A program made the translations under genes and the position numbers. Source: an uncultured archaeon (GTDB lineage Archaea; Aenigmatarchaeota; Aenigmatarchaeia; GW2011-AR5). From it: a DNA stretch of 64,000 nt. The DNA lies in contig CAYJVT010000002.1 in NCBI GenBank assembly GCA_964373695.1, forward strand, positions 9,448 to 73,447, given 5' to 3'. The number at the start of each line of letters is the position of its first letter. Within the stretch, counting starts at the first letter, position 1. The notes below the pieces were generated by a model. That model saw only the letters and a list, made by a program, of their open reading frames with translations, was not told the origin of the DNA and made no database searches. Below are positions 1,715 to 57,239 of the stretch, piece after piece.

Positions 1715-2854
1715 ATGGCAGATGAATTTCCAACAATGTTTGTAGCCGGCATCACGATACTTGCGGTGCTGCTCATCATATTCAACGTCAACACGTTCGT
1801 CCAGCCGTCGATATCAGGAACTGGATTCCTGACTAAGGAGAGTTTTGACGAGAAGGACCTGAAAGGCGCGTTCTTCGCCGGGACCAACTTCACGAACCAG
1901 TTCGCGGCTTTCAACTTCGACTTTGCCGTGGACAACCTTGCAGGCGCCAAGACGGCAAGCATAGGCCAGAGAGAAGTGTCCAACGGCATATTGTTCGGCG
2001 AGAAGTCAGTCAGATATACACTGGAGAAAGGCGAATCCGTGACGGTAAAGTTCAGGATAGAAAGCACAAACGCCCTGACACCGCTCATTTTCAGGCTTAA
2101 CGGCAATGAATACAAGTATGACCTCAAGGAAGGCATCCATGAAGTGACGATAGACGAGCCCTTCGAAGACGGAAGCGTGCTTGAAATAACTGCTGCAAGC
2201 TCCAGCTGGAAAATATGGGCCCCGTCCCTCTACCGCCTGGATGGAATAAGCATAAACGTGAAGGCGTTCAAGGAGGATGTCGACCAGTACATATTCAACG
2301 TAGGCGACGAGTTCGAGACGCTGCAGGGCGGAAGGATGGACCTGTACCTGAAGGAGAACGCAGGCATACTCAAGATAGAGCTTAACGGCAAGGTTATATT
2401 TGACGGAATAGCGAGGGATTTCCAGCCAATACGCTTCTCCAGCAACGACATAATGAAAGGGCAGAACATACTCACATTCACGGCCACTCCCGAATCGAAG
2501 TTCTCAGGTGAGGCCACGATGGTCCTGTTCTACAAGCATGGCGAGCAGAAGGAAGTGAAGGCGATAATCAACCTGACCGAGGCCGAGCAGAAGGCCGTAA
2601 AGCGCGGAACTGTAAGGTTCAAGATAGTCGACGTCAGCAAAAACGGCGGCGTCGCCATCCGGATAACGCATGGCGGCGAGACAACGTTCAGCACTTTCGC
2701 CCGCGCAGAGACCGGCACATACTCATTCGAGTTCACGAAAGACGAGGTCAGGCAGGGCATAAGCGTCGTCTCGATAGAGGCGATAGACGGGGCCTCCTTC
2801 CTGGTGAAGGGGCTTGACGTCAAGATAGAGAAGGGTCTTTTTATCAGCTTATGA
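1715..2854 (+). CDS. N-terminally anchored, beta-rich secreted/surface protein (379 aa)
   Basis: One N-terminal hydrophobic helix (FVAGITILAVLLIIF) followed by alternating beta-strand patterns. Confidence 0.75.
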   Translation: MADEFPTMFVAGITILAVLLIIFNVNTFVQPSISGTGFLTKESFDEKDLKGAFFAGTNFTNQFAAFNFDFAVDNLAGAKTASIGQREVSNGILFGEKSVRYTLEKGESVTVKFRIESTNALTPLIFRLNGNEYKYDLKEGIHEVTIDEPFEDGSVLEITAASSSWKIWAPSLYRLDGISINVKAFKEDVDQYIFNVGDEFETLQGGRMDLYLKENAGILKIELNGKVIFDGIARDFQPIRFSSNDIMKGQNILTFTATPESKFSGEATMVLFYKHGEQKEVKAIINLTEAEQKAVKRGTVRFKIVDVSKNGGVAIRITHGGETTFSTFARAETGTYSFEFTKDEVRQGISVVSIEAIDGASFLVKGLDVKIEKGLFISL

Positions 2855-3521: not shown

Positions 3522-6500
3522 ATGGCAGAACAAGATCGTACAATAGAAGATATAAAAAACGATATTTTGAGTGAAAAAAGAAATATCAAGAGGAGACTAC
3601 AAAGTGATGAAGACCCTAGACAAATTGCAGAACAACTCATCTCTAGATACGCATTACGCAATCCACATATTACCAATAGGGATTGGATTCATGATGGTGT
3701 AGTTTCTGCTATTAATGAGATAATAGGAGAAACTACTGGCACTACAATTGGTGGTGGCCACCCAAAATATAACCCCTTACAACATCGTGGCCCTCATTAT
3801 ATAGAAGAAAAACACTTTGTGGTAAAGATACTTCAACCGAATCCGCATAATCCTAGGGAAAATAATATAGAACTTCATCAAGAGCCTACAACAGGACAGC
3901 AGTTTCATGAAAAAATTGTCTTCGATGCAGAGGTTACAGGCGGCAAAGGACCCTTTAGATATAAATGGGAAGTCCAGGTATCTGGACAGGGATTTACTAC
4001 TTGGATTCACTTCTGGCCTTACGATAAAAATGGAATTGCTTATGACTGGAGTGATGAAGTTGACAGCAGGGATTATAAATTCTTCAAGGGCGGCCTAGAT
4101 ACCATAAGGAACAACTTCCACTATGCCCAGCCGCTTCATGCCACCCATATGGATGACCCGTGGGCAAGCCTGCCTCCAGGAACTTATAGGGTGCGCGTAA
4201 CAGTCAGGGATAGCACAAGAAAAGAAGCCCAGGCGGAAACGACTTTCACCGTCGGCGGCCTGATACCGGATAAAAATTACATAAAAGCCCATATAACAAG
4301 CCCTGCGGAATCCGGACACATCAAGGAAATAGAACTGCATACGGACGTGTCAACAGGGGACCGGTGGCACGAGGCTGTAACATTCAACTGCGAGGTCACG
4401 CACGGCATCACGCCCTACACGTATGAATGGAAGATAGACAACCATACCGTATGGCAGGGCACGAACGACATGTTCAAAACGTTCCAGAGAGGCGGGCAGA
4501 AAAATCCTGTCGCAGAGCCCAATAACTCGGATGCAAACCTTGACATACCGGCCGCAAGCCTCACGGAAGGCAGGCATGAAATCGTGCTGACAGTCACCGA
4601 CAGAAGGAGAAATACCGCGACAGCAAAATGTTTCCTGATAGTCACATCAAAGCCAAGGGGGAAAATGCGTGCTGTAATAACACAGCCGAGAGATGAAGAC
4701 CCAAAAAAAACTTTCGGCAAAGAGCTCAAGGGGGAAAAGGAAGAATCATATCACGAGCCTATAACATTCGACTGCGAAGTTTCCGGCGGCTCCGGCAACT
4801 ACGACTACAAGTGGACTGCCACTTCAATGGATCAGGATCTCAACGAAACTTCGGCTGAAGTCCCGCTAAATTTCGTGAGCCGGAAAACTTTCACGAGAGG
4901 CGGGCAAACGCATCCTGTAAATAATGAAAACGACCCGCAGGCAAGCCTTAGCGAAGGCCTGTACCAGATAACACTCAAGGTCACCGACATAAACAACACG
5001 AACGAAACTGCAGAAGCAACAACATGGATACGCATCGGCGAGGAGGAAGGCACTCATGCGCGCTCCCTTTCATCGTACGTCGGGATGAGGCCGGCAGCGG
5101 CGCGCATAGGGGGCGGCTGGGCGGGCGGGCCCAGGGGTGCTTACACGAGGCGGCAGGCCATGACAGGAATAGGAGAACGGGCCATGCACAGGGTGCAGCA
5201 TCCCATGTCGGGCTCGGGCAGAGCCCTCGGTTTCATCAGAAGCGAGAAGAAGGAAGGGACAGGAACATGGGGCAAAGAGGGCATCCGCGGAGCTATAAGG
5301 TCCAATATTGCAGTGCAATCGGCAGTAAACCAGGGAAAGCGCGAGCTCAACAGGTGGGCCAGGCAGATGTTCAGCCCGGAATTCCAGAGGCTTCAGCGCG
5401 AACTAAGAACCCTCACGGATACATGGAGGAGAAGGAGAAGGGAATGGGTTGATGTAAGAAACCAGGCAAGAAGGCAGTATGGCAGGTGGAGGGATTATCT
5501 TAAAGGGCAGGGGGGAGCTGATGCCCTGACAAATTCAGTCACTATCGCCCAGCAGCGCGGACAGGTAAACGAGGTCCAGGCCAGGCTCCTCATAGACCAG
5601 ATAAACCAGGCTTACAACAGGTTCACGAAATCCGAGGAGGAGCTGCTGAATTTCAGCCACAGCAAAGCCAGTGAATTGCAGACAACCATAAATAACAGGA
5701 TGGAAAAGGTTGCAGAACAGGTTGCAGGCCGCATCATCTACAGGTTCAAGATAAAAGACGGGGCCGCACAGGACGATATAAAAAGTGAGCTGAAAGGAGA
5801 GGCCCAGAAAATCGCAACAAGCATGGTGGAGAAGGGCAGGGACACCCTATCGGGGCCGCTTGGAATGATAAGAAGCGCCTCCATGGGAGCAAAAACGGTA
5901 GGCGCCTCCTACTACAGCTTCTGGGAATTCTGGAGGGAAATACTGACAGCACCTTTCATATGGGGAACGCTGTTCGCAGTCGTCCAGTATTTCTTCATAC
6001 TTACATATGTAGGCTACAATCCGACATACCTTCTGATATATCCGATAATAACGGCTTTATTCACTTTTCTAGTTTACTTCGGGGACCTTTTCGAGGGCGG
6101 GGCGCGGCCTTTTGACCTGTTCAACCATTTAGCATCGGGTGCCATCATCGGGTACACGGCAGTGCTGCTGATGCTGGCCTTCGGATTCCAGACTTTTGTC
6201 AGCACCGGATGGTTCTGGGGGATATGGATATTCTTCAGCCTTATCGGCATCTTCCAGTTCTACCATTCAGGCGGATTCAGGATAGTGCTCCAGGGCGGCG
6301 TCATAATCCTCCTCTTCGCGTACATAGCGATGGGGCCGTACTCGGGATACTATCAACAGGTCATAGACCAGGTAAGAGGGCCTGTTGTCGTCGCGTACGA
6401 TGCGGTGGAGAAGACGGTCGGCGACGTCTACCTGCTGGCAACGAACCCGACGGAGTGGTACGCCAGGCAGCAGGTCCAGAATGTAAGGCCGGAGAAGTCA

Positions 6501-8606
6501 ACTGTCGCGGCGCGGGGACTGGAGATCACGCTGTTCGACGCGCTGCCTGCGAGCGTGCCGGCCGGGCAGCAGTTCGCAGTTACAGCTGTCCTGAAGCACG
6601 AAGGCGTGCTGGACAACGTCACCGACATGAAAGTGGCGTTCTCGTGCAATCAGTGGTGCCTAATTGACGGCGTCACTGCCACTGATAAAGGCGTAAGCAG
6701 GACAAGCAAAGGGGCTTTCATGATAAATAATGCCGTGAATGGCCAGAGCATCCTGCTGAAGGGCGAATCAATGGTGGCATCGTTCTCCGGCTTCATTTCA
6801 AAATCAGTGACCAACAGGGAGAACGAGTACAGGCTGGCAAAGGTCACGATGAACGTTTCGTACAAATACTCAACAACAAGCTCGCTCTTCGTCGAGGTGG
6901 TAAACAGCGAGGAGCTCAACAAGAGGACCAACGAGGGAAAGAACTTCAGGAACGTGGTCGCGATAGGCAAGAACGGCCCGGCGCAGCTTTCGCTGAACGT
7001 GGGACCGCAGCCCCTGATTGCCGGGAAGAACGCTCTGCTGCTTGTGTCCGTATCGAATTCGCGCGACGACAGTTCCGTAATACTGAATGAAGGAAGCGAA
7101 ATCACGATAAGGATGCCGCGTTCAGTCGGCAGCGGACTGAACTGCGACGGATTTGTCCATGAAGAGACGGACGGATATCCGGACATTACCGGCGTGGAGG
7201 TCGTGAGGTACAAAGTCTCGCCGAAGACAGCCGACAGGGTGGAGATAAAGGCCTCGGACTTCAATTCCATATTCCCGTTCATATGCAGCTTCACGGCAAA
7301 TGAAGTACGCGGCGCCGGCCCGCTCACGCAGACAGGGCTCGTGACGGCAGAACTGCCTTCATACGAGTTCACGGTCATAAAGGAGAAGGAAGTGCCGGTA
7401 ACAGTGCCGCTAGGCATCCTGTTCGACTCCAATGAAAGGATTTGCCGTGGAGCCTCAGGCCAAGCCGAATGCATCTCGCTTGACAAATGCTATTATGAGG
7501 ATAAGGGAGCCGCAGAAAGCTCCCTGCTCAGCGACTTGTGCCACTCTTGCGCTCAGGAGCCTACATGCGACCAGTTCATGTCGCAGGAAAGCTGCGAGCA
7601 ACAGTCAGTATCGCAGTGCGGCCTCTCCAACTGCGGCTGGGATGCCGACGCGAGGAACGAGATAGGCGTGACGACAGGCAAGTGCTTCCAGAAGCCCAAC
7701 CAAATAAACGGTAACGTGAGGAACGCAATACTTTCAGGCACAATAATTGAAAAAATAATACAGGCGTCGAAAGCCGCCGGATTTGACAGGGAAGATACGA
7801 AGAGGGTGCTTGCCGTGGCGGCGCAGGAGAGCGGATTCAGGATGGTCTCCGGAGACGGCGGCGATTCGGCAGGAGTTTTCCAGCTGAATAAAAGAGCACA
7901 TCCGACATGGTTCGACCCCCTGCTGTCCGGATGTCCAGACGGCCAAACCGCCTTAGATGAGGACTGCAACATCAAGCTTGGCGTTGACTTCATCAAGAGC
8001 CTGCACATCCAGTATTTCAACGACAACCCAAGAACTTATGCCTGTGAGAGAGTATACAGCGGTTGGAACGCAGTTTTCAGATATTATAATGGATGGAACT
8101 CGCCATCCACATGCAATGATTTGACAGTAAGTTATGTAGAGAAAGTAAACGGGTGGCTCACATGCAGGGACAAGGCAAGCTGTGTTGAAAATGCGATAGT
8201 CAGGAATATCGATGATGTACGCGGATATGAGAACTTGATGGAAGCCGTATTCGCAGGGAAAGGGAGTGTGGATTTCTGCAGGGAAGCCAGAATCGATATA
8301 AACAACAAGGCAAACAGCTGGTCATATGGACAGGGATTGTGTATAGAAGGGGAGGGAGGATGCGAAGGGGACGGGCAGTGCGGCAAGCTGTTTAAAGACG
8401 TCAGAATAGACACCTCAGGCGTCTGCGTGAAGCCTGGCCATGATAATTATGACGATGTTGCGCATCAATTCGTGAATGCAGGAAAACTCCAGAGCGGCGC
8501 CGGCATCTGCTGCTATTCAGATGAAAGCGGCAACATAAATGCAAACAGGTGCAAAGCCGCTTACAGCCAGTGGTTCGGCTCATCGCCGTTATTCTCCACT
8601 GTATAA
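3522..8606 (+). CDS. Giant multidomain membrane protein (1694 aa): 3 PKD/Ig-like repeats, Arg-rich helical region, 5 TM helices, lipoprotein-like outer module, Cys-rich segments, SLT/lysozyme-like domain
   Basis: Repeats with F(D/N)xEVxxGxxxxxYxW (~3813-5040); TM cluster aa ~810-940; SLT motifs AVAAQESGF (Glu ~aa1436), SAGVFQLN, NIKLGVDFIKSL, AVFRYYNG. Confidence 0.85.
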   Translation: MAEQDRTIEDIKNDILSEKRNIKRRLQSDEDPRQIAEQLISRYALRNPHITNRDWIHDGVVSAINEIIGETTGTTIGGGHPKYNPLQHRGPHYIEEKHFVVKILQPNPHNPRENNIELHQEPTTGQQFHEKIVFDAEVTGGKGPFRYKWEVQVSGQGFTTWIHFWPYDKNGIAYDWSDEVDSRDYKFFKGGLDTIRNNFHYAQPLHATHMDDPWASLPPGTYRVRVTVRDSTRKEAQAETTFTVGGLIPDKNYIKAHITSPAESGHIKEIELHTDVSTGDRWHEAVTFNCEVTHGITPYTYEWKIDNHTVWQGTNDMFKTFQRGGQKNPVAEPNNSDANLDIPAASLTEGRHEIVLTVTDRRRNTATAKCFLIVTSKPRGKMRAVITQPRDEDPKKTFGKELKGEKEESYHEPITFDCEVSGGSGNYDYKWTATSMDQDLNETSAEVPLNFVSRKTFTRGGQTHPVNNENDPQASLSEGLYQITLKVTDINNTNETAEATTWIRIGEEEGTHARSLSSYVGMRPAAARIGGGWAGGPRGAYTRRQAMTGIGERAMHRVQHPMSGSGRALGFIRSEKKEGTGTWGKEGIRGAIRSNIAVQSAVNQGKRELNRWARQMFSPEFQRLQRELRTLTDTWRRRRREWVDVRNQARRQYGRWRDYLKGQGGADALTNSVTIAQQRGQVNEVQARLLIDQINQAYNRFTKSEEELLNFSHSKASELQTTINNRMEKVAEQVAGRIIYRFKIKDGAAQDDIKSELKGEAQKIATSMVEKGRDTLSGPLGMIRSASMGAKTVGASYYSFWEFWREILTAPFIWGTLFAVVQYFFILTYVGYNPTYLLIYPIITALFTFLVYFGDLFEGGARPFDLFNHLASGAIIGYTAVLLMLAFGFQTFVSTGWFWGIWIFFSLIGIFQFYHSGGFRIVLQGGVIILLFAYIAMGPYSGYYQQVIDQVRGPVVVAYDAVEKTVGDVYLLATNPTEWYARQQVQNVRPEKSTVAARGLEITLFDALPASVPAGQQFAVTAVLKHEGVLDNVTDMKVAFSCNQWCLIDGVTATDKGVSRTSKGAFMINNAVNGQSILLKGESMVASFSGFISKSVTNRENEYRLAKVTMNVSYKYSTTSSLFVEVVNSEELNKRTNEGKNFRNVVAIGKNGPAQLSLNVGPQPLIAGKNALLLVSVSNSRDDSSVILNEGSEITIRMPRSVGSGLNCDGFVHEETDGYPDITGVEVVRYKVSPKTADRVEIKASDFNSIFPFICSFTANEVRGAGPLTQTGLVTAELPSYEFTVIKEKEVPVTVPLGILFDSNERICRGASGQAECISLDKCYYEDKGAAESSLLSDLCHSCAQEPTCDQFMSQESCEQQSVSQCGLSNCGWDADARNEIGVTTGKCFQKPNQINGNVRNAILSGTIIEKIIQASKAAGFDREDTKRVLAVAAQESGFRMVSGDGGDSAGVFQLNKRAHPTWFDPLLSGCPDGQTALDEDCNIKLGVDFIKSLHIQYFNDNPRTYACERVYSGWNAVFRYYNGWNSPSTCNDLTVSYVEKVNGWLTCRDKASCVENAIVRNIDDVRGYENLMEAVFAGKGSVDFCREARIDINNKANSWSYGQGLCIEGEGGCEGDGQCGKLFKDVRIDTSGVCVKPGHDNYDDVAHQFVNAGKLQSGAGICCYSDESGNINANRCKAAYSQWFGSSPLFSTV

Positions 8607-8755: not shown

Positions 8756-8812
8756 CATTGTATGAATTTTTATTCAAAGCCACAGTCTTATATCCCTTCA
8801 AATTGACAATAT

Positions 8813-8849
8813 AAACAAAAAGAGAGGCGCCATGCGCAAACGCCTCTCT
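8813..8849 (-). terminator. Bacterial-style intrinsic terminator downstream of the 573-aa ORF
   Basis: 9-bp stem AGAGAGGCG/CGCCTCTCT followed by a U-rich tract on the minus strand. Confidence 0.5.
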
Positions 8850-8900
8850 CCGGCCTGCATGAAAGCGCGGCCTTGCAGCCCTCCGCGAGGAGTTGGAGGA

Positions 8901-10622
8901 CTACTTCCCGATGCCGCGGTCTTTGCGGAACTTCTTCGGGTTCCGCGCGAGGTCAACGATGTCCTTCTGCACATTATCAATCTCGAGGAAGAGCGAGTCG
9001 ATGCTGCTCTTGACGGACGGCATGTCTCTCACTGCATCATGCAGAGAGGCGATGCGCTCTTCCATCGCCTTGATGCTGTCACTGCTGGCCGCCGCGTTGC
9101 GCTGCACGGCGCACAGCATATCGCGAAGGTCGCCGACCTGCTGAGCCAGGGTATCGCAGACCGCCTTCTTCCCGGCTGGCGCAGCAGGCCCGCCGAGACG
9201 CTGCCGGATGCGGGCGTCGATGCGGCTCCGGTCGCCGGGCCAGGTGACTTTCCCAGGCTCGAGGAGACCGACCGCCGGAGCTGTCGGGAAGCCTTCCCCG
9301 CGGAGGACAACCATGTCGTTGAACTTGATGCCTTCGGGCACAGTGACGATGTACGGCTCGCCCCAGTCATCGTACTGTACGAGCGGGTATTTGGTCGAGA
9401 TAGAGGTCGTAGACCTGTAGCCTGCTGTGTAGGCCGTCGGCGGCTTCATGTCGAAAGATGCCGGCAGCTCAACCACATCCGCGTAGTCGACCAACCAGAA
9501 GGTCACCAGGCCTGCCTTCATGTTCTTGAGGAACTCACGCGCCGGAGCTTCCTCCCTCTTCCGTATCTCGACGACAACCTGGTTCTTCCCGCCCGAAAAC
9601 TCCGGCGCGTCGTACTGCACCCGGAGCTTGGTGATGACCTCGCCGGCGCGCAGCGTGGCGATGTCACGCAGCACGCTCTGCCAGAGGAAAGGCTGACCGT
9701 CCTGCACGATGACCATATCCTGCCGCTTCGGGATGCGGAACGCCGACGTCCGACGCCTCAGCTCCAGCGGCCCGCCAGGAGTGTACTCGAGCTCGTCGCC
9801 CGGGATGAACATTCCAGCGATATTGCGACACTCCTCCTTTGTTCCTGCGAAGCGCAGCTCCTCTCCTTTCGTTGTTGTGGGGCGGTACTCGGCCGTCCCG
9901 TCTGGATTCACTACAACCTTCTCGCTGGCCAGCACGAAGGTCACGACATTGACTTGTGAAGGACCGGGGTATACTGCAGGCGCCTGGACGGCGGCTTCTG
10001 GCTCTTCGTCGTTTGGAGTAACTTTTGGAGTAACTTTTGGAGTAAACCACGTGCCCGGGTTCCACCAGTCGGCGGCGGCGGGGGAGGCGGCGAAGATGAC
10101 GGCCAGAACCACCATGCCTTTGAGTAACTCTCTGGCATGGATGATGTGTCCTCTGACGCCGTCCCCTTCGTCGTCATCGGGTGTAACCCTTGAGATTCCG
10201 TCCAATTCTAACATAATCTTCCTGATGTTATTCCGACGGCGCCCGCGCTTGCGCATCATGCAGACGGCGAGTGGGATGCCGCCGACGAAGAAGATGATGT
10301 TGAGGAACAGTACCCAGCCTGCCAATGCATTCATCTTGCTCTCCCTCTTGTTGCGCACGTGCACTTCATCACGTGAAGTTGTGGGTGAGGACTGCTTGTT
10401 GTGAGTGGGTTCGGCTGTGACAGCGGCCTGATTATGGCCTTCAGGACTGCCGGAAATCACGGCCGCGAAAACAGAGGCCACTACCACGAGAACCAGTATT
10501 GTGACACCGGCCATGATTGCCGCTCCGAACCAGCTGAGGCCGAGTCTCACGCAGATACGAAGCAGGTACAGAACTGCCAGTATCAAAGCCAGTACGGCTA
10601 CTGCATAGGGGATGATGCTCAT
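8901..10622 (-). CDS. GC-rich hypothetical membrane protein (573 aa) with C-terminal coiled coil; possibly a fusion of several genes
   Basis: Strong SD (AAGGAG) before the ATG; three N-terminal hydrophobic segments; internal signal-peptide-like LAVIFAASPAAA-DWW; heptads at the C-terminus. Confidence 0.7.
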   Translation of the reverse strand: MSIIPYAVAVLALILAVLYLLRICVRLGLSWFGAAIMAGVTILVLVVVASVFAAVISGSPEGHNQAAVTAEPTHNKQSSPTTSRDEVHVRNKRESKMNALAGWVLFLNIIFFVGGIPLAVCMMRKRGRRRNNIRKIMLELDGISRVTPDDDEGDGVRGHIIHARELLKGMVVLAVIFAASPAAADWWNPGTWFTPKVTPKVTPNDEEPEAAVQAPAVYPGPSQVNVVTFVLASEKVVVNPDGTAEYRPTTTKGEELRFAGTKEECRNIAGMFIPGDELEYTPGGPLELRRRTSAFRIPKRQDMVIVQDGQPFLWQSVLRDIATLRAGEVITKLRVQYDAPEFSGGKNQVVVEIRKREEAPAREFLKNMKAGLVTFWLVDYADVVELPASFDMKPPTAYTAGYRSTTSISTKYPLVQYDDWGEPYIVTVPEGIKFNDMVVLRGEGFPTAPAVGLLEPGKVTWPGDRSRIDARIRQRLGGPAAPAGKKAVCDTLAQQVGDLRDMLCAVQRNAAASSDSIKAMEERIASLHDAVRDMPSVKSSIDSLFLEIDNVQKDIVDLARNPKKFRKDRGIGK

Positions 10623-11393
10623 CTCTTCTCCTTCCCTTGCGCGTTAAGCTGTTGTAATGGGAGTGGGTGGATGTGAACGTTAGCCTTTTTTTCATAGTCT
10701 CTCCTTCCGGAAATCGAGGCAGGATTCATCAGGGCTAGCTGTTTCCGGCTTTCATCCATGCGGAGACTTTGGCTTCCACCGCCCTGATTTTCTCTAAGGC
10801 AACCTTCAAGTCTTCCGCGTTTTCGATGCCGGCGGACTTCAGAACGAATATGATGATCGGAATCAACTACAATCTGCCCTCGCAGATTGTCCTGAATGAC
10901 GGGCATCCTCAGACCTGCCGTTGGGGTTGACGTATCTATGCGCGACATCTGTTCATGAATCACACAGCTGCTGGACGATGCCCTCTTTGCTGCTGCCGCA
11001 TGCTGCGCATATCGCCATCATCTGTCCTTTCTGCTATGATGTCTTCCGACATCCTTAGATAAAATTAAGTCGTGTAGAATTCTAGGTTTGGCTACTTTTT
11101 TCCTGCCGTGTTTTCCCTCGCCCAGACGGGCGGCTGAAGGAATGCTCCCGTCCTTTTCAGGTGGGGAACATTCCAAAGGCTGACATGACTCGACAGAAGC
11201 GTGTTCTGGATCGATGTCAGACCTGATTTTTTTGTGTATTTGGTTTGAAGGCCGTGAAGCGGATTTTCACCACTTAACAGCCGTGACATTTATTTAAAAG
11301 ACTACCGCAGAAAAGTATTTAAAGGTTTTGTTACTTTTGGGTGGTTTTAAAATCGATATGGCAATGCCGATTAATTAAAATTCGATTCGGGAT

Positions 11394-12206
11394 TTAAACG
11401 CCCATAACGAGGCGCGAGAAATTGCGGAGGCCGGGGCCCAGGCCGAGGACGAGGACTACTATCTTCAGGAAAGTCCTTTTCTGCACCTCGTTGGAGAGCT
11501 CCTTGTCAAGGGCGTACAGCACGAGGGGCACGACGACAAGCTTCAGAATGAACATGGAGGCGGGGCCCAAAAGGCCTATAATAAAGCCAGGCAGGACGTG
11601 CTGCTCAAAGTAGTTTGGAAAGAACTGGAGCGCCACGAAGGTCGTGGTGGCGTCGAACATATGCACGGCAATTAGGAATGAATTCTCTTCAGAGAGAAAG
11701 TTCCTGATTCTTGCGCTGCCAAGCTTTCTTCCTGCAAAAATCGCTGCTGCCCATGCTGCTGTGATGCCTAGCATGGCGTACAATGCAAAGGCGCTTTGCA
11801 GCGTCATCTGCGATACTGCAATAATGACAAAAATCATGCCGAGCGAAAACCATATCTTGTAATAAGGCGTTTTTGTCCATCTTTCCATGAGCTTTGAAAA
11901 GAGCAAGGCAGCCAGAGCAATGACAAAAATTGAAATATATATCAATGGAGTTATGAGGAATATGTTCTTGGCAAGGCCGGCGAATTCGCGGTAATCCTCA
12001 AGGGCGCGCAGGAAGCCTCCCAGCATCACGAAGGGCACTATGCTGAAAAAGAACTTCCTGTCTATCTCTATTCGAAGGCGCCGGAGCAATCTGTAGGTTA
12101 AAAACGCCGCCGCTATCAGCAAGACAGCGTACACAGCAGTGTTATAAACATTGTATCCGCTGCCGTTCAGTATTGGGTCGACAAAATATTCCTTGAAGAA
12201 ACCCAT
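11394..12206 (-). CDS. DUF63 family archaeal membrane protein
   Basis: YNVYNTAVY, GGFLRALED, HMFDATTTFVA and YFEQHVLP motifs; multiple TMs. Confidence 0.85.
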   Translation of the reverse strand: MGFFKEYFVDPILNGSGYNVYNTAVYAVLLIAAAFLTYRLLRRLRIEIDRKFFFSIVPFVMLGGFLRALEDYREFAGLAKNIFLITPLIYISIFVIALAALLFSKLMERWTKTPYYKIWFSLGMIFVIIAVSQMTLQSAFALYAMLGITAAWAAAIFAGRKLGSARIRNFLSEENSFLIAVHMFDATTTFVALQFFPNYFEQHVLPGFIIGLLGPASMFILKLVVVPLVLYALDKELSNEVQKRTFLKIVVLVLGLGPGLRNFSRLVMGV

Positions 12207-12242
12207 ACTAACTTTAATTATGGGAAAACCTAATAAATCAAT

Positions 12243-13301
12243 ATGAAATCGGCGTATATAGCTGTTCTCTTGCTCGTTTTTACAGCCGGATGCACCGGAC
12301 TGTCCGGCGTGTTCGGGGGCGACATACTCAACATAAAGCAGAACCTCATCCAGGAGGGGCAGAAGGACATAATCGTCATAAAGGATGTCTCGACGATACC
12401 CAAATCCCCCATGCTCCCTGAACAGTCGTTCGTGCTTACGATGCTTCTGGAGAACGTCGACAAGACCGAGGACGCCACGAATGTCGTGGTGGACCTCTTC
12501 AACGCACCGACCGTGAAAAGCGACAAAGAGGAGTCCCGGGGAAGCGTATGCAATGCCGGAAGCGGAAGCGTATGCCTCCCGGACAAGTGCAAGAGTAGTG
12601 AAAACGGAAAATGCATTGTCGAGACAACAATGCTTCCTGGAGAACAGATTCCGGTCAATTTCTACCTGAAGACGCCAACTGAGGATGAAATAGTAGGCAT
12701 AGAGACCAAGCCGGCCCTCGACTACAGGGTCACATACGACTTCGAGTCGTCATCGTTATATATAATGCCGTCAGTCAACCTGGACGAGATAATAAAGAAC
12801 CAGAGGAGCAACGACAAGGTCAATGTCCAGGTGACGAAGTCCTACGGCACCGGCCCTGTCAGGATTGACATGGACCTCTTCGGCACGCCGTACATACTTT
12901 CGGGACAGTCGGCGACATTCATATTCAAGATAACGAATACAGGAGTGGGCAACGTCATAGGCTCCCAGATAGACGCCGGAAATTTTGAGGTAAGCATACC
13001 GAAGAGCCTGATAGGAAGCGGCAGCCTTATGCTTCCTGGAGGCGGCGTCTTCGAGTCCGGCCAGTATACGCAGACGACAGAGAGGTTCTCGTGTAGTGGT
13101 GATGAAACGTACGTGACATGCACGAACGCCGACGCCATACAGATGTACAAGGACCAGACGCGCGGCTCGCTGCGCTTCGAGGTGCAGGGAGTGGCCGACA
13201 TAAACCAGCCCTTCGTATCGTACGACATAAGGGCGTCTGTGAAATACAGGTACGAGTTGCGCGGCACCCAAGAGATAACTGTAAAGCCGTTTGAAAGCTG
13301 A
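12243..13301 (+). CDS. Lipoprotein paralog 1 (two beta-sandwich domains)
   Basis: Lipobox FTAG-C; shares the module with paralogs 2-4. Confidence 0.85.
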   Translation: MKSAYIAVLLLVFTAGCTGLSGVFGGDILNIKQNLIQEGQKDIIVIKDVSTIPKSPMLPEQSFVLTMLLENVDKTEDATNVVVDLFNAPTVKSDKEESRGSVCNAGSGSVCLPDKCKSSENGKCIVETTMLPGEQIPVNFYLKTPTEDEIVGIETKPALDYRVTYDFESSSLYIMPSVNLDEIIKNQRSNDKVNVQVTKSYGTGPVRIDMDLFGTPYILSGQSATFIFKITNTGVGNVIGSQIDAGNFEVSIPKSLIGSGSLMLPGGGVFESGQYTQTTERFSCSGDETYVTCTNADAIQMYKDQTRGSLRFEVQGVADINQPFVSYDIRASVKYRYELRGTQEITVKPFES

Positions 13302-13306
13302 TTTTT

Positions 13307-14176
13307 ATGAGATATGCAATAATCCTTGCATTCCTGATAGCCGCGAGCGGATGCGTCTCCCAGAGCGCCTCCTATGGCGGGCTGGTTGTCAGCATGTTCG
13401 CTGACCCGCCGCAGGTATTCCAGAACCAGGCCACAACGCTTTTCATCGACATAGACAATAGGGACGTGAAGAAGGTCAACAATGTCGTCTTCGAGGTGTT
13501 TGACACAGGCATCATGCGCATCATGGATGGCACAACCGTTTCGGCATGCAGGAAATCCTTCCCCAAGCTAGTGCCGAAGGAATTCCAGACTTTCTCATGC
13601 AGGCTGGCAGCAGGGAGCGTTGGCGAGACCATTGTCAACAGAATAAGCGCCAAAACCACTTTCAGCGCCGAGCTGAACGCGGTGCAGCTCATAGAAATGA
13701 TATCCAGGCAGGAATACGAGAGGAGGAAGGCGGCCGGCACCTTCATCACAGCGCCAAGGAAATATACTTATTCCGACAGCAACGTGGCGCTTGACATAGA
13801 ATTCAGCGAGGATATGCCGGTGATAGAAAGGAGCGGAAAGAGGTACTTCATACACATGACCGTCAGGAATACAGGGAACGGCTACATAAGGGAGCTGGAG
13901 CCCGGTGATTTCATAGTCACCCAGAAAACGTCTGAAAGTTTGCAGATACTTCCAGACATAGAAACCGTGAGTGTTATCAACACCCAAGCCGACAACCTCG
14001 TCAGGTGCGACGACTTCGGGGAGAAGCTTTCACCAATAGGCGACAAGTTCCCCAGAGTGACGTGCGAGTTCGTGCCTCCCAAAAAAATAGGCGTCATAGG
14101 CAATTACCCAATGGAAGTGAAGATAAACTACGATTACGAGACGAGGCAGAATCTCAACATAAGAATAATAAAATAA
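13307..14176 (+). CDS. Lipoprotein paralog 2
   Basis: Lipobox AASG-C; VRNTGNG motif; C-terminal YDYETRQNLNIRI. Confidence 0.85.
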   Translation: MRYAIILAFLIAASGCVSQSASYGGLVVSMFADPPQVFQNQATTLFIDIDNRDVKKVNNVVFEVFDTGIMRIMDGTTVSACRKSFPKLVPKEFQTFSCRLAAGSVGETIVNRISAKTTFSAELNAVQLIEMISRQEYERRKAAGTFITAPRKYTYSDSNVALDIEFSEDMPVIERSGKRYFIHMTVRNTGNGYIRELEPGDFIVTQKTSESLQILPDIETVSVINTQADNLVRCDDFGEKLSPIGDKFPRVTCEFVPPKKIGVIGNYPMEVKINYDYETRQNLNIRIIK

Positions 14177-14230
14177 AGCCCAAAAAATCTTTTTAAAGAG
14201 GTGTAATCATAACTATAAAGAGGTATAAAA

Positions 14231-15205
14231 ATGAAGATTGGACTTTTCGCCGTTCTTGCTCTTATATTTGTGGTCGGATGCGTCGGCGGCGGCACGAGGC
14301 CGACCACTATCAGCGACACAGAAGGCGTCCGCATCTCGTCATTCACGGCAACGCCCTCTGTAACCGATGTTTTGTCGGGCGACACAGTCATATTCGATGT
14401 CGAGGTTGAGAACATCGGCGGGACAACAGCTTCTGATGTCGAGGTCACCCTGTCCGGCATAGAGAACCAGTGGAGGACGACCGGCGGCGTCCCGGCACCA
14501 CAGGTCATAGCAAAGTCATTCTCATCATTGAGACCGCCGCAGGCGGAAAGGAACATAGCCGGCGACTTCCGCATCGCGCAATGGGAATACATGACGCCAA
14601 GAATACCCGAAGGTCTCAGGACGCCGCTGAACATAGAGTCACGCGTCACTTATAAGTATAATACAAATGGCTTCCTCCAGCTTACCGCTGTGAACGACGA
14701 GGAATTCAGGAGGCAGCAGGTCATAGGCTCCTCGATAGACCCACCTGTAGTGCAGAACAGCGCAGGACCGCTGAAACTGTCGGTGCCGTCGACTGAGAAA
14801 AGCAGCTTCGTGATAGTTGACACAGCCTCGACCGAGCCCGAATTCATATACCCGCTCAAGATAGAATTCAGGAACGTCGGCGCCGGATTCCCCCTGGGAA
14901 CTGATTCAACCAACCAGGGCAGGCTGACCGGAACCATAAAGCTTCTCGGGCCTGGCGTGGAGTTTTCCAGCTGCCTCGGTGTTACGAGCGGCCGCGAAGT
15001 CGCCCTCCAGGACAGCGGCGTCAATGACGTCATAGTCAAGCTCAGGGACACCCAGAATGTTCCTATCGTCTGCAACCTGAAATTTACAAAATCGGAATGG
15101 CAAAACACGCCCACCGACAAGGTGAGCCTTGTCTTCAACATAGACTACACGTATTTCACCAAGCAGACTGCCACAGTGAACGTTCTGGGAAGAAGAACGG
15201 AGTAA
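14231..15205 (+). CDS. Lipoprotein paralog 3
   Basis: Lipobox FVVG-C; VENIGGTTA, AGPLKL and FRNVGAG motifs. Confidence 0.85.
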   Translation: MKIGLFAVLALIFVVGCVGGGTRPTTISDTEGVRISSFTATPSVTDVLSGDTVIFDVEVENIGGTTASDVEVTLSGIENQWRTTGGVPAPQVIAKSFSSLRPPQAERNIAGDFRIAQWEYMTPRIPEGLRTPLNIESRVTYKYNTNGFLQLTAVNDEEFRRQQVIGSSIDPPVVQNSAGPLKLSVPSTEKSSFVIVDTASTEPEFIYPLKIEFRNVGAGFPLGTDSTNQGRLTGTIKLLGPGVEFSSCLGVTSGREVALQDSGVNDVIVKLRDTQNVPIVCNLKFTKSEWQNTPTDKVSLVFNIDYTYFTKQTATVNVLGRRTE

Positions 15206-15257
15206 TTTTTTCTTTTGATTAAAGTATTTTATATACAGAAGTTTCTATAATTATTAC

Positions 15258-16517
15258 ATGAAGGTCTATCTTCTTATGATTCTCGGCCTTGTGCTCGCGG
15301 CCGGGTGCGTTTCGCAGGCGAAGAACCCGAACAACGGTATCATTATAAACGAGTTCACGGCCGACCCGAAGATTGCGGAATACGGCGACACCGTGAGATT
15401 CTTCCTGGACGGCGAGAACATCGGGGGCACTACGGCCCAGTGCGTGACGACAGAGCTTTACGGGCTTGAGGGAGGATGGACGGACCTTACAGGACAGCTG
15501 TTCGCCATTCCGTATGTAGGGCAGACGATAAACGCCGGGCAGCCAGGCATCACAATAGGCTTCGAGTCGTGGGGATTCAACATACACAGGGTTAACGACC
15601 GGTGGGGAGGCTCCATTTTCTACAACGACCTAAGCGTCGAAGGCGGAAGGAGAATAGTCGCGTCCATTGAAGGCGGCGACTTCTCGGTCAGCGGCGGCTT
15701 TTACAGCATAACGACGGCTATAGACACGTCTTTCAGGAGATTCGCAGCAGATTATTGTACTTACATAGGCGGAAGGTTCCCTGGCAAGATAAAGTTTGAG
15801 CCAGTCCTCTCTCCGCCTCTTCCGGAAAGGAACAAGCCTGGGCAATCTTTCACTGCGGACTGGATTCTGAAGCCCCCTCTGATACCTGAGGGCCTGTCTG
15901 TCGACTATCCTGTAACAGCCAGGACGTCATTCTTCTACACGTCGAACGCGCAGGTTAACATACCAGCTTACAGCAAGGCCGAATACAAGAGAAGGCAGGA
16001 CATAGGGGAAGCCGTCGACCAGCCGCTCAATGTCGTCAACACCCATGCGGCCCCGATACAGGTCGGTATAACCAGGGGCGCAAGTCCCATGGTTGTCAAC
16101 ACCGACACTACATTTTCGGCCCTGCCGGAAGAGACTTTCAATTATCTCATTGAACTGCGGAACGTAGGACAGGGATATCCCCTGCCTTTCAGCGACGTGC
16201 AGACAACCGTAGGGAACGACATAAGCGTCGAGAGCGGATTTGTCATCGCGACGATGAGCATAGCAGGCCCTGGCGCGCGTTTCGAGGACTGCCTGGGCCA
16301 GAGCGGACAGGAAGTTCTGATAGGCCCTGATATAGTCGCGAACCTGGTGAAGCTGCGCTCCGACGGAAAGGCCCCCTTCGGATGCAAGGTGGCGATAAAC
16401 AAGGGCGCATGGCAGACGACGCCCGTCGGCACGGTCAGCATAACGTTCAACATAATGTACAGGTATTATGTGGACAAGCACGCAACAGTGACCGTGATAG
16501 GGCCGTCAAGGTCTTAG
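15258..16517 (+). CDS. Lipoprotein paralog 4 (with ~95-aa insertion)
   Basis: Lipobox LAAG-C; ENIGGTTA and LRNVGQG motifs. Confidence 0.85.
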   Translation: MKVYLLMILGLVLAAGCVSQAKNPNNGIIINEFTADPKIAEYGDTVRFFLDGENIGGTTAQCVTTELYGLEGGWTDLTGQLFAIPYVGQTINAGQPGITIGFESWGFNIHRVNDRWGGSIFYNDLSVEGGRRIVASIEGGDFSVSGGFYSITTAIDTSFRRFAADYCTYIGGRFPGKIKFEPVLSPPLPERNKPGQSFTADWILKPPLIPEGLSVDYPVTARTSFFYTSNAQVNIPAYSKAEYKRRQDIGEAVDQPLNVVNTHAAPIQVGITRGASPMVVNTDTTFSALPEETFNYLIELRNVGQGYPLPFSDVQTTVGNDISVESGFVIATMSIAGPGARFEDCLGQSGQEVLIGPDIVANLVKLRSDGKAPFGCKVAINKGAWQTTPVGTVSITFNIMYRYYVDKHATVTVIGPSRS

Positions 16518-17726: not shown

Positions 17727-18081
17727 GATATTTTAATGTGCAGAAATTATTAATCACTAATGAGGATATCTTCAGGGAAAAGGACGTTTTCAGTGAAGGA
17801 TTGCCGCGGCCTGTCATGTATATGGGGCCTCATGTTTGACGATATGAAGAACATTGACGGCGCACTCGTCCGCGGCGGCAGCATATGGATGCCTTTCGTG
17901 AAGCATGAGCTGGAGCTGTTTTTCCTTGACAGAAACATGATAATATCTAAAATTCAAAAGGCCGTGCCAATGACACTGAAGCCAAAAACATGGAAATCGT
18001 ACTCATGCGCCGGCGCAAAATACTGCCTGGAGATGAGGAAAGGCGCGTGCAAAGCAAAATTAGGGATGAAAATCAAGATGA

Positions 18082-18167
18082 TGGGCTCGGCAGGAATTGA
18101 ACCTGCGGCCTCCTGCGTGTGAAGCAGGCGTCATACCAATGTCCGCGATGCTCTAGACTACAAGCCC
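18082..18167 (-). tRNA. tRNA-Val(CAC) with 14-nt D-loop intron (15/16)
   Basis: Acceptor stem GGGCTTG/CGAGCCC; anticodon arm CCTGC-TT CAC AC-GCAGG; BHB around intron 18139-18152. Confidence 0.9.
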
Positions 18168-22826: not shown

Positions 22827-23267
22827 ATGAAGGGCCAGAACCAAATAATAAATGAAGTGCTTCTTTTTGCCATAGGAATGTCAATAGCGGCCGCTGTCAT
22901 AATAAACTTCCAGACGGTCCAGAGAACGTCAAGCGAAACGACAATATACAGCAACTTTGAAAACGTTGCCAACACCGTGATAAACGGGATAACCGAGGTC
23001 ATAAAAAGCGAAAGGGGCAAAGTCGTGGTCGCCATACCAGACACCATAGCCTCGATCCAGTACAAGATAAAGGTATCGTCCGACTACCTAATAATATCCA
23101 GCATAAATGACCCGAAAATTAATATCACGAAGAGGCTATTTAATATATCCAGCAGCCATATTATACAGGGCGAGGTTCCCAGCGCTTCAAGATACATCGA
23201 AATAACGTACGAAACTACGCCATTCACCAAGCTCGTGAGGATAAAAAGGGCGGAAAAATATGTCTAA
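22827..23267 (+). CDS. Type IV pilin-like protein
   Basis: MKG|QNQIINEVLLFAIG. Confidence 0.75.
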   Translation: MKGQNQIINEVLLFAIGMSIAAAVIINFQTVQRTSSETTIYSNFENVANTVINGITEVIKSERGKVVVAIPDTIASIQYKIKVSSDYLIISSINDPKINITKRLFNISSSHIIQGEVPSASRYIEITYETTPFTKLVRIKRAEKYV

Positions 23268-25242: not shown

Positions 25243-25243
25243 A

Positions 25244-26101
25244 ATGTTCTATTTTGAAATAGCCGGGAAAATGTTCGGAGAAACGTCAAAGAAACTGAAG
25301 CCGTATTTTCTAGACCTCAGGGACGACCTGCAGAGGGCCGGCATAATGTACACAGTGGAAGAATACATATCAACAGCTATTTTTGTGTTCTTTATGACGT
25401 TCTTCTTCGAGGCCATCTTCCTGTCTTTCATATTCGCAATATTTTTCGATATATTTATAGCTCTCATGCTTGGATTCATGATGTCAATGGGAATCTCGAG
25501 CTTCATCTTCTTCCTTTTCTATTCGTATCCGGCAACAATCTCCAAATCCAAAGAAAAGAGCATAAAGAAATCCCTGCCTTTCGCAGTATCATATATGTCT
25601 TCAATAGCAAGTTCCAAACAAAACCCTGTAATTATGTTCAAATCGATGAGGGAGTTCAAGGAATACGGAGAGATAACCAAGCTATGCTCCAATATAGCCA
25701 GGGATATAGAATTCTTCGGCCTAACGGTCTCGTCGGCGCTGAAGAAATGGGCCAAAAGGACGCCGTCGAAGGACCTGAGGGACCTCCTGTGGAGCATGAA
25801 CACGATAATGATATCGGGCGGCGACCTGTCGCTTTTCCTCAAGCAGAAGAGCGACGACCTCATGGCAGACTACAGGAGGAGGATAAGAAAGTACTCCCAG
25901 GATTTGTCTCTGTATGTGGAGATATACCTCACGCTCATAATAACAGGTTCCATTTTCTTCATAGTGCTGTCGGCCATAATAGCCACCCTTTCCAGCGACT
26001 CGTCGACGACCCTCATACAGAGCTTCGTGGTTTTCGGCCTCCTTCCGGCGCTGTCGTCCGGCTTTATAGTGATAATAAAATCCATGTCCCCGCTGGAATA
26101 A
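25244..26101 (+). CDS. TadC/FlaJ-like pilus platform membrane protein
   Basis: LPFAVSYMSSIASS T2SSF-like segment with TMs; follows the ATPase. Confidence 0.88.
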   Translation: MFYFEIAGKMFGETSKKLKPYFLDLRDDLQRAGIMYTVEEYISTAIFVFFMTFFFEAIFLSFIFAIFFDIFIALMLGFMMSMGISSFIFFLFYSYPATISKSKEKSIKKSLPFAVSYMSSIASSKQNPVIMFKSMREFKEYGEITKLCSNIARDIEFFGLTVSSALKKWAKRTPSKDLRDLLWSMNTIMISGGDLSLFLKQKSDDLMADYRRRIRKYSQDLSLYVEIYLTLIITGSIFFIVLSAIIATLSSDSSTTLIQSFVVFGLLPALSSGFIVIIKSMSPLE

Positions 26102-26262
26102 CCTATGAACAAAGATAGTTACACTGCCGTCTTTAGATGGCAATTTCCCTATCTTTGTCATCCCAGAAGCCTCTTTGTGATATTATCCCATAACTAAAGT
26201 TATAGAGTTTATAGAGGCTTCTGCGGATAAACACTAAATACTCGGCCCTGGATTATAATTAT

Positions 26263-33383: not shown

Positions 33384-33393
33384 GTAGTATATA

Positions 33394-57153: not shown

Positions 57154-57239
57154 TAGCCCCGCCAGGATTCGAACCTGGGTCTCCCGGTATCTCCGAATGC
57201 TCCAGAGCCGGGAACACTTGGCCTCTATGCTACGGGGCT
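57154..57239 (-). tRNA. tRNA-Gln(CUG) with 13-nt canonical 37/38 intron
   Basis: AGCCCCG/CGGGGCT acceptor; CCCGG-CT CTG G|A-CCGGG anticodon arm; intron 57189-57201 with BHB. Confidence 0.92.

What the first reader, a model, noticed from the sequence alone, without database searches (positions are those of the whole stretch)
12243..16517. Four tandem paralogous lipoproteins whose two-domain body is also embedded in the giant SLT protein
Seen: all four have a lipobox Cys and align by eye with aa ~1000-1290 of the giant protein. Block 1: VSYKYSTTSSLFVEVVNSEELNKR (giant), VTYKYNTNGFLQLTAVNDEEFRRQ, TSFFYTSNAQVNIPAYSKAEYKRR, TTFSAELNAVQLIEMISRQEYERR, VTYDFESSSLYIMPSVNLDEIIKN. Block 2: NGPAQL, AGPLKL, AAPIQV, TGPVRI. 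All end in a terminal Y-x-Y/F strand. Inference: five paralogous subunits of one hetero-oligomeric surface complex, with the giant protein as the membrane-anchored catalytic member. I recognise no named family for this module.
Basis: partly seen in the sequence, partly recalled or inferred. Interest (0 to 1): 0.8.

Follow-up and report, generated by a model that had tools for sequence, protein, structure and literature searches.

The report
Paralogous lipoproteins beside wall-cutting membrane scaffold
In a tiny DPANN archaeon (Aenigmatarchaeota), four neighbouring lipid-anchored surface proteins are ancient copies of a two-domain module that also forms the outer stalk of a large membrane protein carrying a bacterial-cell-wall-cutting enzyme; the set lies beside a lipoprotein-lipidating enzyme gene and is kept together across this archaeal class, so it probably works as one surface system aimed at bacteria.

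Summary
The four tandem ORFs (12243-16517) all begin with a signal peptide and a lipobox Cys. Profile-profile comparison shows they are true, distant paralogs of each other (98-100% probability without signal peptides) and of residues ~1000-1296 of the 1694-aa giant protein (98%, E 1.5e-13). Unrelated neighbour families score 1.2% or less.

The module is two beta-sandwiches tied together by two long strands. It has no Pfam name, and named hits come only from Aenigmatarchaeota.

- The divergent gene at 11394-12206 belongs to PF01889, the AliA/AliB family of archaeal lipoprotein-lipidation enzymes.
- The linkage of core membrane protein, AliA-like gene and an F1-F2-F3(-F4) lipoprotein array is conserved across the order and recurs in other orders of the class.
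- The conserved part of the giant is only its five-helix membrane domain plus the module. Its C-terminus is interchangeable and carries different peptidoglycan hydrolases in different lineages: SLT, glucosaminidase, amidases, M23, VanY, NlpC/P60.

Most likely this is one lipid-anchored envelope system that presents wall-degrading enzymes to bacteria. Physical assembly of the five paralogs is inferred, not shown.

The parts
1715..2854 (+). Conserved upstream neighbour (c6): N-terminal membrane anchor plus a beta-rich ~350-aa body. Not homologous to the module.
   Evidence: Found just upstream of the core gene in 10 of 21 loci. hhalign against F1-F4 and the giant module gives 1.2% or less. No Pfam hit.
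3522..8606 (+). Giant core protein (1694 aa). It has a variable N-terminal region with Ig/PKD-like repeats, a basic coiled-coil region, five membrane helices, the two-sandwich module, a Cys-rich linker and an SLT-like domain.
5940..6332 (+). Five hydrophobic helices (aa 807-937) of the conserved membrane domain. They are followed by a conserved juxtamembrane motif (ATNPTEWYARQQ).
   Evidence: Hydropathy scan. AF2 model, pLDDT 83.7. Consensus of 33 homologues. Found in 59 of 70 genomes of the order.
6519..7409 (+). Two-beta-sandwich module of the giant (aa ~1000-1296), paralogous to the four lipoproteins.
   Evidence: hhalign F1-GM 98.0%, E 1.5e-13; F3-GM 97.9%. HMM cross-hits. Same secondary-structure layout as F1.
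7761..8111 (+). SLT/GH23-like lytic transglycosylase domain (aa ~1414-1530) with E-S, GVFQLN and YYNGW motifs.
   Evidence: Pfam SLT_3 24.8 bits and SLT 16.1 bits, both below cut-off. A profile of 5 orthologues hits MltC at E 0.009, and E121/S122 are invariant. Relatives score above cut-off at the same position.
11394..12206 (-). AliA/AliB-family (PF01889, formerly DUF63) membrane protein, a candidate lipoprotein-lipidating enzyme. It is transcribed divergently from the lipoprotein array.
   Evidence: Pfam 229.6 bits against a cut-off of 25. HVO_2859 is listed as a DUF63 family protein (PMC9426492) and is AliA (PMC12462473). The precomputed Pfam label is 'AliA_AliB'. Adjacent in 18 of 21 loci and in other orders.
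12207..12242 (.). 36-bp divergent intergenic region with two A/T-rich TATA-like boxes. TTTAATTAT (12213-12221) lies ~26 bp upstream of the F1 ATG. TAATAAAT (12231-12238) lies ~28 bp upstream of the aliA-like start.
   Evidence: Read from the sequence. The promoter function is inferred.
12243..13301 (+). F1 lipoprotein (352 aa).
   Evidence: Lipobox FTAGC. AF2 pLDDT 89.5, pTM 0.82. Family found in 53 of 61 related genomes.
13307..14176 (+). F2 lipoprotein (289 aa), starting 5 bp after F1.
   Evidence: Lipobox AASGC. F1-F2 99.6%. F2 clade 18/18, support 0.90.
14231..15205 (+). F3 lipoprotein (324 aa).
   Evidence: Lipobox VVGC. Weak DUF11/CARDB-type signal at aa 39-73, below cut-off. The giant-module HMM hits it at 3e-6.
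15258..16517 (+). F4 lipoprotein (419 aa). It is a duplicate of F3 with a ~100-aa insertion in the first sandwich.
   Evidence: BLASTP F3/F4 2e-42. F3+F4 clade 47/47, support 0.98. F4 is missing in several families of the order.

Best explanation
This is a conserved Aenigmatarchaeota envelope gene cluster.

Its parts are a polytopic membrane protein (the 'core'), an AliA/AliB-type enzyme, and three to four lipoproteins. The core has a cytoplasmic N-terminus, five helices and an extracellular two-beta-sandwich module. The lipoproteins (F1, F2, F3, F4) consist of the same module and little else.

Proposed working:
- The lipoproteins are exported by Sec and lipid-anchored at the lipobox Cys, probably by the neighbouring enzyme.
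- They associate module-to-module with the ectodomain of the core to form a membrane-anchored surface structure.
- In many lineages the core extends this structure with a C-terminal peptidoglycan hydrolase (here SLT/GH23), so the structure presents wall-degrading enzymes to bacteria that the archaeon touches or feeds on.

Shown: paralogy, conserved lipobox, gene linkage, the AliA-family identity of the neighbour, and the interchangeable hydrolase domains.

Inferred: lipidation by this particular paralog, physical co-assembly, and the bacterial target.
For: Paralogy:
- hhalign 98-100% among F1-F4 and 96-98% between F1, F3, F4 and the giant module; controls 1.2% or less.
- Reciprocal HMM hits are restricted to family members among 4,647 genome ORFs.
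- Lipoprotein HMMs hit the minimal core forms at 1e-6 to 8e-10.

Same fold:
- Both AF2 models show sandwich 1, a long strand, a short helix, sandwich 2 and a long terminal strand.
- Their fold-search neighbours overlap.

Lipoprotein nature:
- The lipobox is present in all 65 orthologues.
- A genome scan gives 22 candidates against 4 in a reversed-sequence control, and 6 of the 22 belong to this family.
- The adjacent gene is PF01889 = AliA/AliB.

Linkage:
- The order c6, core, aliA-like, F1-F2-F3(-F4) is kept across the order.
- The core is in 59 of 70 genomes, and in 14 of 14 high-quality ones.
- The same linkage appears in other orders and in a metagenome contig.

Ancient, non-redundant paralogs:
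- GM, F2 and F3+F4 each form one clade, with support 0.90-0.98.
- Within the genus the lipoproteins are 82-95% identical, like EndoQ (87%) and PF01889 (94%), while the giant's termini diverge.

Hydrolase domains on core homologues:
- SLT 13, glucosaminidase 6, Amidase_2 4, M23 2, Amidase_3 1 and NlpC/P60 1 of 31 diverse long homologues.
- VanY in L043, M23+SLT in L044.
- Glucosaminidase plus Amidase_3 in a distant homologue.
- SLT lies in the core reading frame in at least 15 genomes of the order.

Other:
- No Mur ligase or PBP transpeptidase was found in this 91%-complete genome, so the substrate would be foreign.
- A DnaJ domain at the N-terminus of one homologue fits an N-in topology.
Against: - No direct evidence of physical interaction. 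No multimer prediction could be run, and there are no proteomic or imaging data.
- Gene linkage and shared ancestry would also arise for co-regulated but independent surface proteins.
- In family f7 the core gene lies on a different contig from F1 and aliA. In G205 the lipoprotein array lies >100 kb from the core-aliA pair. Adjacency is therefore not obligatory.
- The genome has three PF01889 paralogs, so which one lipidates these proteins is open.
- Minimal cores lack any hydrolase, so wall degradation cannot be the ancestral or universal function.
- The window's own SLT domain is below Pfam's cut-offs.
- The N-terminal Ig/PKD-like repeats would be cytoplasmic under the predicted topology, which is unusual.
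Confidence: 0.55

Rival explanations
1. The paralogs work independently. F1-F4 would be separate lipid-anchored surface proteins, such as binding proteins or adhesins. They arose by duplication of the same module as the core's ectodomain and are merely co-transcribed near it. No complex forms.
For: - The fold is a generic tandem beta-sandwich like those of adhesins, integrin legs and macroglobulin domains.
- The array and the core can be unlinked.
- Copy number varies: F4 is absent in some families, and there is an extra F3/F4 pair on C59.
Against: - Each paralog is an old, separately retained orthologous group kept in a fixed gene order.
- Sequence conservation equals that of housekeeping neighbours rather than fast-evolving adhesins.
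- The proteins carry almost nothing besides the shared module.
Confidence: 0.25
2. The five paralogs are the main envelope lattice (S-layer-like coat or its membrane anchors) of these archaea. The hydrolase domains would be secondary decorations.
For: - The core was found in all 14 high-quality genomes of the order.
- The family accounts for 6 of about 18 net lipobox candidates in a 1-Mb genome.
- The family is under purifying selection.
- Minimal cores have no enzyme domain.
Against: - There are no abundance data.
- Only 108 of 201 sampled genomes of the phylum gave a match.
- No similarity to known S-layer proteins was found.
Confidence: 0.12
3. The core works with the AliA-like enzyme in lipoprotein maturation or sorting. 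Its module would dock the paralogous prolipoproteins as clients rather than as partners.
For: The core and the PF01889 gene stay adjacent even where the lipoprotein array lies elsewhere (L117, L118, L119, L122, L124).
Against: - The core family is confined to Aenigmatarchaeota, while lipoproteins and AliA are widespread.
- The C-terminal wall hydrolases have no place in such a role.
Confidence: 0.05
4. The resemblance is only a shared generic Ig/CARDB-type fold or chance, not specific paralogy.
For: Pairwise BLASTP outside F3/F4 is marginal. There are weak DUF11-type hits.
Against: - Full-length profile matches have E-values of 1e-13 to 1e-25, and negative controls fail.
- The HMMs hit no other protein of the genome.
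- The only non-Aenigmatarchaeota hit seen was a repeat protein that matches one short strand motif.
Confidence: 0.03

Closest known systems
[quoted passage not shown] 2021, PMC8204110; also PMC9723730)
   Same: A very large DPANN membrane/surface protein with an SLT/GH23-type domain, interpreted as acting on bacterial cell walls.
   Different: - Those were described for Woesearchaeota and Pacearchaeota, and as single proteins.
- Here the conserved part is a five-helix membrane domain plus a two-sandwich module.
- The hydrolase is interchangeable.
- The module has 3-4 lipoprotein paralogs and an AliA-family neighbour.
- Whether fam00969 shares the module could not be tested. No named hit outside Aenigmatarchaeota was seen.
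AliA/AliB (PF01889, arCOG02177/02178) archaeal lipoprotein lipidation components of Haloferax volcanii (PMC12462473)
   Same: The neighbouring gene is a full-length PF01889 member. aliB genes of haloarchaea are reported to lie often near predicted lipoproteins.
   Different: - Here one of three paralogs is fixed between a polytopic scaffold gene and an array of paralogous lipoproteins, in a DPANN lineage.
- Activity and the AliA-versus-AliB type (Arg versus His pocket) were not determined.
CARDB / DUF11-type beta-sandwich cell-surface domains
   Same: The strand pattern with an N-x-G motif in both sandwiches. There are weak hits to PF01345 (E 0.0094) and TIGR01451 (E 0.0055) in F3.
   Different: - All scores are below the curated cut-offs.
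- The module is a fixed pair of sandwiches joined by two 21-25-residue strands and a short helix.
- Fold-search matches (Z about 10) cover only one sandwich, at most 142 residues.
Membrane-anchored multi-hydrolase proteins of Gram-positive conjugation systems (PrgK/TcpG type) and phage tape-measure proteins with SLT/M23 domains (my own knowledge, not tested here)
   Same: A long protein with coiled-coil and membrane segments that carries SLT, M23, amidase or NlpC/P60 domains to open a peptidoglycan wall locally.
   Different: - No sequence similarity was found outside the hydrolase domains.
- The gene is chromosomal, and its synteny is conserved across a class of archaea.
- It is accompanied by paralogous lipoproteins, not by secretion or virion genes.
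SusE/SusF-type surface lipoproteins of Bacteroidota (my own knowledge, not tested here)
   Same: Lipid-anchored proteins built of tandem beta-sandwiches and encoded in a row beside a membrane component that handles a glycan.
   Different: No detectable homology, a different domain of life and lipidation pathway, and no glycan-binding evidence here.

Membership tests
Archaeal lipobox lipoproteins | N-terminal signal peptide ending in a lipobox with an invariant Cys | tested here: met
   All four window proteins. 64 of 65 orthologues by pattern, and the last one by eye.
Archaeal lipobox lipoproteins | The genome encodes AliA/AliB-type lipidation components | tested here: met
   Three PF01889 genes, each above cut-off. 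One lies directly beside the array.
Archaeal lipobox lipoproteins | Covalent lipid on the Cys and signal-peptide removal | not testable with these tools
   Needs mass spectrometry or mobility-shift and Triton X-114 assays, as in PMC12462473.
AliA/AliB family (PF01889) for 11394-12206 | Full-length match above Pfam's gathering score | tested here: met
   229.6 bits against a cut-off of 25, profile positions 3-269 of 269.
AliA/AliB family (PF01889) for 11394-12206 | Pocket residues: two conserved Arg in AliA, His in AliB | not tested
SLT / GH23 lytic transglycosylase (giant aa ~1414-1530) | Match above the Pfam gathering score | tested here: inconclusive
   - Window protein: SLT_3 24.8 bits (cut-off 27) and SLT 16.1 bits (cut-off 21.3).
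- Homologues at the same position score 30.9-56.9 bits.
- An orthologue profile hits MltC at E 0.009.
SLT / GH23 lytic transglycosylase (giant aa ~1414-1530) | Catalytic Glu in an E-S motif, followed by G-x-x-Q and Y-N-G motifs | tested here: met
   E121, S122, Q139 and Y207-N208-G209 are invariant in the 5-sequence alignment.
CARDB / DUF11 domain | Match above the curated cut-off | tested here: not met
   PF01345 16.7 bits against 24.6; TIGR01451 16.7 bits against 24. None of 35 F1 members hit it.
DPANN fam00969 giant transglycosylase proteins | Sequence membership in the published protein cluster | not testable with these tools
   The cluster's sequences are not held here. Only the description could be compared.
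Arrestin-like or fusexin/HAP2 domain III folds (leads from the fold search) | A structural match that stands above generic beta-sandwiches and covers both lobes | tested here: inconclusive
   TXNIP, ARRDC3, Spo0M and Fsx1 give Z 7.7-9.9 over about 105-115 residues, tied with dozens of unrelated sandwiches.

The most novel reading that the evidence does not exclude
The five paralogs build a dedicated, class-specific hetero-oligomeric envelope machine. It would consist of one polytopic subunit plus three to four lipid-anchored subunits, matured by its own AliA-type enzyme, and its polytopic subunit would carry swappable peptidoglycan-hydrolase 'warheads'. This would be the first defined molecular apparatus by which a DPANN lineage attaches to, breaches or feeds on bacterial cells. 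It would also be the first multi-subunit lipoprotein complex tied to the newly found archaeal lipidation pathway.
Probability: 0.3. Interest if true: 0.85.

Novelty: new variant of a known kind. Interest (0 to 1): 0.62.

Why it matters
- Hosts and lifestyles of most DPANN archaea are unknown. A conserved surface system whose variable end is always a bacterial-wall hydrolase, in an organism where no murein synthesis genes were found, is concrete genomic evidence that Aenigmatarchaeota deal physically with bacteria. It also names the proteins to look for.
- It gives the recently discovered AliA/AliB lipidation pathway a defined, conserved set of candidate client proteins in a DPANN lineage.
- It defines an unnamed protein module and a membrane domain that could be turned into family models for annotation.

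Tried and rejected
- **Named families for the lipoproteins.** Pfam and NCBIfam gave nothing above cut-off.
- **Sequence searches of the PDB.** Profiles of F1 and of the core gave nothing significant.
- **Fold searches.** Foldseek and VIA-align on both models gave only generic one-sandwich matches. These were integrin legs, MSCRAMM adhesins, macroglobulin domains, transglutaminase barrels, the AglB/STT3 C-terminal domain, HAP2/Fsx1 domain III and arrestin-like proteins (Z at most 10.2, TM at most 0.27). No match covered both sandwiches or the membrane domain.
- **ESM Atlas.** F1 gave only unnamed Aenigmatarchaeota clusters, and the membrane domain gave nothing.
- **c6 (1715-2854) as a sixth paralog.** Rejected: hhalign 1.2% or less.
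- **Link to the type IV pilus-like ATPase and T2SSF genes at 23260-27201.** Rejected: thermosome, EndoQ and tRNA genes lie between them and the array, and they are not syntenic with the cluster in relatives.
- **Flanking conserved genes.** EndoQ-like, dCTP deaminase and an MscS-like channel are housekeeping genes and not part of the system.
- **The search for related loci.** The F1 alignment was too divergent for pattern design. The single-protein scan found only the same-genus relative.
- **Prophage or mobile-element origin of the giant.** Not supported, because the chromosomal synteny holds across the class.

Full report
**Setting.** The window is contig C2:9448-73447 of a 1.02-Mb, 91%-complete archaeal genome. 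It carries thermosome, topoisomerase VI and NMD3 genes. The same-genus relative is recorded as a Candidatus Aenigmatarchaeota MAG from groundwater. Every named homologue found is from Aenigmatarchaeota.

**Observation.**
- Each begins with a short basic N-terminus, a hydrophobic stretch and [AS]GC or VGC. The same signal is present in all 65 orthologues collected.
- Pairwise BLASTP proves only the F3/F4 relationship (2e-42). F3 against the giant, F1 against F3 and F2 against F3 are marginal.
- I therefore built family alignments from 21 syntenic loci of related genomes and compared profiles.
- F1, F2, F3 and F4 match each other over their whole length at 99.0-100% probability. F1 matches giant residues 1000-1296 at 98.0% (E 1.5e-13, 276 columns). 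F3 matches at 97.9%, F4 at 95.8% and F2 at 90.4%.
- Removing the signal peptides leaves 98.1-100%. Three unrelated neighbour families give 1.2% or less.
- The five HMMs hit only the five window proteins and a second F3/F4 pair on contig C59 among 4,647 ORFs of the genome. This is specific paralogy, not a generic Ig-fold resemblance.

**Structure.** AF2 models of F1 (pLDDT 89.5, pTM 0.82) and of giant residues 780-1320 (pLDDT 83.7) show the same layout.
- Each has a first beta-sandwich, then a 21-24-residue strand (block 1) and a short helix. A second sandwich follows, and a 21-26-residue C-terminal strand carries Y-x-Y/F.
- Fold searches return only one-sandwich matches of the Ig, macroglobulin or adhesin kind. 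Their aligned ranges run from the first sandwich to the last strand, which suggests that the terminal strand returns to the first sandwich. This last point is an inference, because coordinates could not be inspected.
- No named family fits.

**Context.**
- The gene at 11394-12206, divergent from F1 across 36 bp, is a full-length PF01889 member (229.6 bits).
- HVO_2859 of Haloferax volcanii is annotated as a DUF63 family protein (PMC9426492). It is AliA, shown to be needed for lipoprotein lipidation (PMC12462473). The collection's current Pfam label for PF01889 is 'AliA_AliB'.
- Across the order the gene order is c6, core, aliA-like, F1, F2, F3 and optionally F4, followed by housekeeping genes.
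- F1 was found in 53 of 61 genomes. The core was found in 59 of 70, including all 14 high-quality ones.
- In other orders of the class the same parts recur. Some loci have the core, the aliA-like gene and F1/F3-like lipoproteins together (L108, L109, L114, L125). Others have the core directly followed by lipoproteins (L116, L121), or the core beside the aliA-like gene alone (L117-L119, L122, L124). A metagenome contig shows the same arrangement.
- A tree of 122 modules gives single clades for the core module (24/24, support 0.93), F2 (18/18, 0.90) and F3+F4 (47/47, 0.98), and a near-single clade for F1 (26/33, 0.95). The duplications therefore predate the split of these orders. The labels of the out-of-order sequences came from best HMM hits, which is partly circular.

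**What the giant contributes.**
- Only the region from about residue 780 to 1310 is conserved. It holds five hydrophobic helices (807-937), a conserved juxtamembrane motif and the module.
- Family f7 has minimal forms of 548-588 aa.
- The N-terminus is hypervariable even within the genus.
- The C-terminus carries different peptidoglycan hydrolases in different lineages. Of 31 diverse long homologues, 13 have SLT, 6 glucosaminidase, 4 Amidase_2, 2 M23, 1 Amidase_3 and 1 NlpC/P60. VanY, M23+SLT, and glucosaminidase plus Amidase_3 were seen in individual homologues.
- The window's own SLT domain is below Pfam's cut-offs. It keeps the E-S, G-x-x-Q and Y-N-G motifs, and its orthologue profile finds MltC (E 0.009).
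- No Mur ligase or PBP transpeptidase was found in the genome, so the substrate is presumably bacterial.
- A J-domain at the N-terminus of one homologue and the five helices fit an N-in, C-out topology. The Ig-like N-terminal repeats of the window protein are unexplained under that topology.

**Interpretation.**
- Shown: a new, Aenigmatarchaeota-restricted module family (448 hits at E <= 1e-3 among 1.84 billion representatives); universally conserved lipoboxes; linkage to an AliA-family gene and to a membrane scaffold with swappable wall hydrolases; and old, separately retained paralogs that are as conserved as housekeeping neighbours (82-95% against 87-94% within the genus).
- Inferred: the paralogs assemble with the core ectodomain into one lipid-anchored surface structure that presents the hydrolases to bacteria.
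- The main rival is that they are independent surface proteins that share ancestry and regulation. The occasional unlinking of core and array keeps that open.

**Known or new.**
- Large DPANN proteins with transglycosylase domains have been reported (PMC8204110, PMC9723730).
- I found no description of the paralogous lipoproteins, of the conserved core behind the variable enzyme domains, or of the AliA-family linkage.
- I rate it a new variant of a known kind, with a moderate chance that it is a distinct multi-subunit machine.

Noticed in passing
window 30222-36078: Both topoisomerase VI subunit genes (B at 30222-33383, A at 33394-36078) are interrupted by inteins with LAGLIDADG endonuclease domains.
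   Followed up: no
window 8772-11092: A stretch present in this genus but absent from most relatives, where the core gene abuts the PF01889 gene. It carries a 573-aa membrane/coiled-coil ORF on the minus strand (8901-10622), shadowed by an Arg-rich + strand ORF. An earlier scan note calls it a GC-rich old foreign cassette.
   Followed up: partly
G000 contig C59 (loci L002, L004): A second, diverged F3/F4 pair with lipoboxes (47% and about 35-38% identity) lies on a 2.7-kb contig of the same bin. It is either an extra paralog pair or a fragment of a co-binned relative.
   Followed up: partly
G000:C6:45367-46149 and C21:8006-8788 (L127, L128): Two further PF01889 (AliA/AliB-family) paralogs in a 1-Mb genome. 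Neither is next to a lipobox gene.
   Followed up: partly
window 23260-27201: An archaeal type IV pilus-like assembly ATPase (T2SSE plus PilB3_C) followed by two T2SSF membrane-protein genes.
   Followed up: no
window 18082-18167 and 57154-57239: ARAGORN calls two 86-nt tRNAs (Cys with an odd anticodon position, and Ser). They are probably intron-bearing genes. The ORF at 17760-18122 overlaps the first one.
   Followed up: no
giant aa ~970-995 (window ~6430-6510): A very strongly conserved juxtamembrane motif (LLATNPTEWYARQQ..NVRPE) lies between the last membrane helix and the module. It is invariant or nearly so across 33 homologues and has no known counterpart.
   Followed up: no
P0049 and one other core homologue: Some core homologues end in a putative esterase (PF00756), and one carries an AIG2/gamma-glutamyl cyclotransferase-like domain instead of a classical wall hydrolase.
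   Followed up: no
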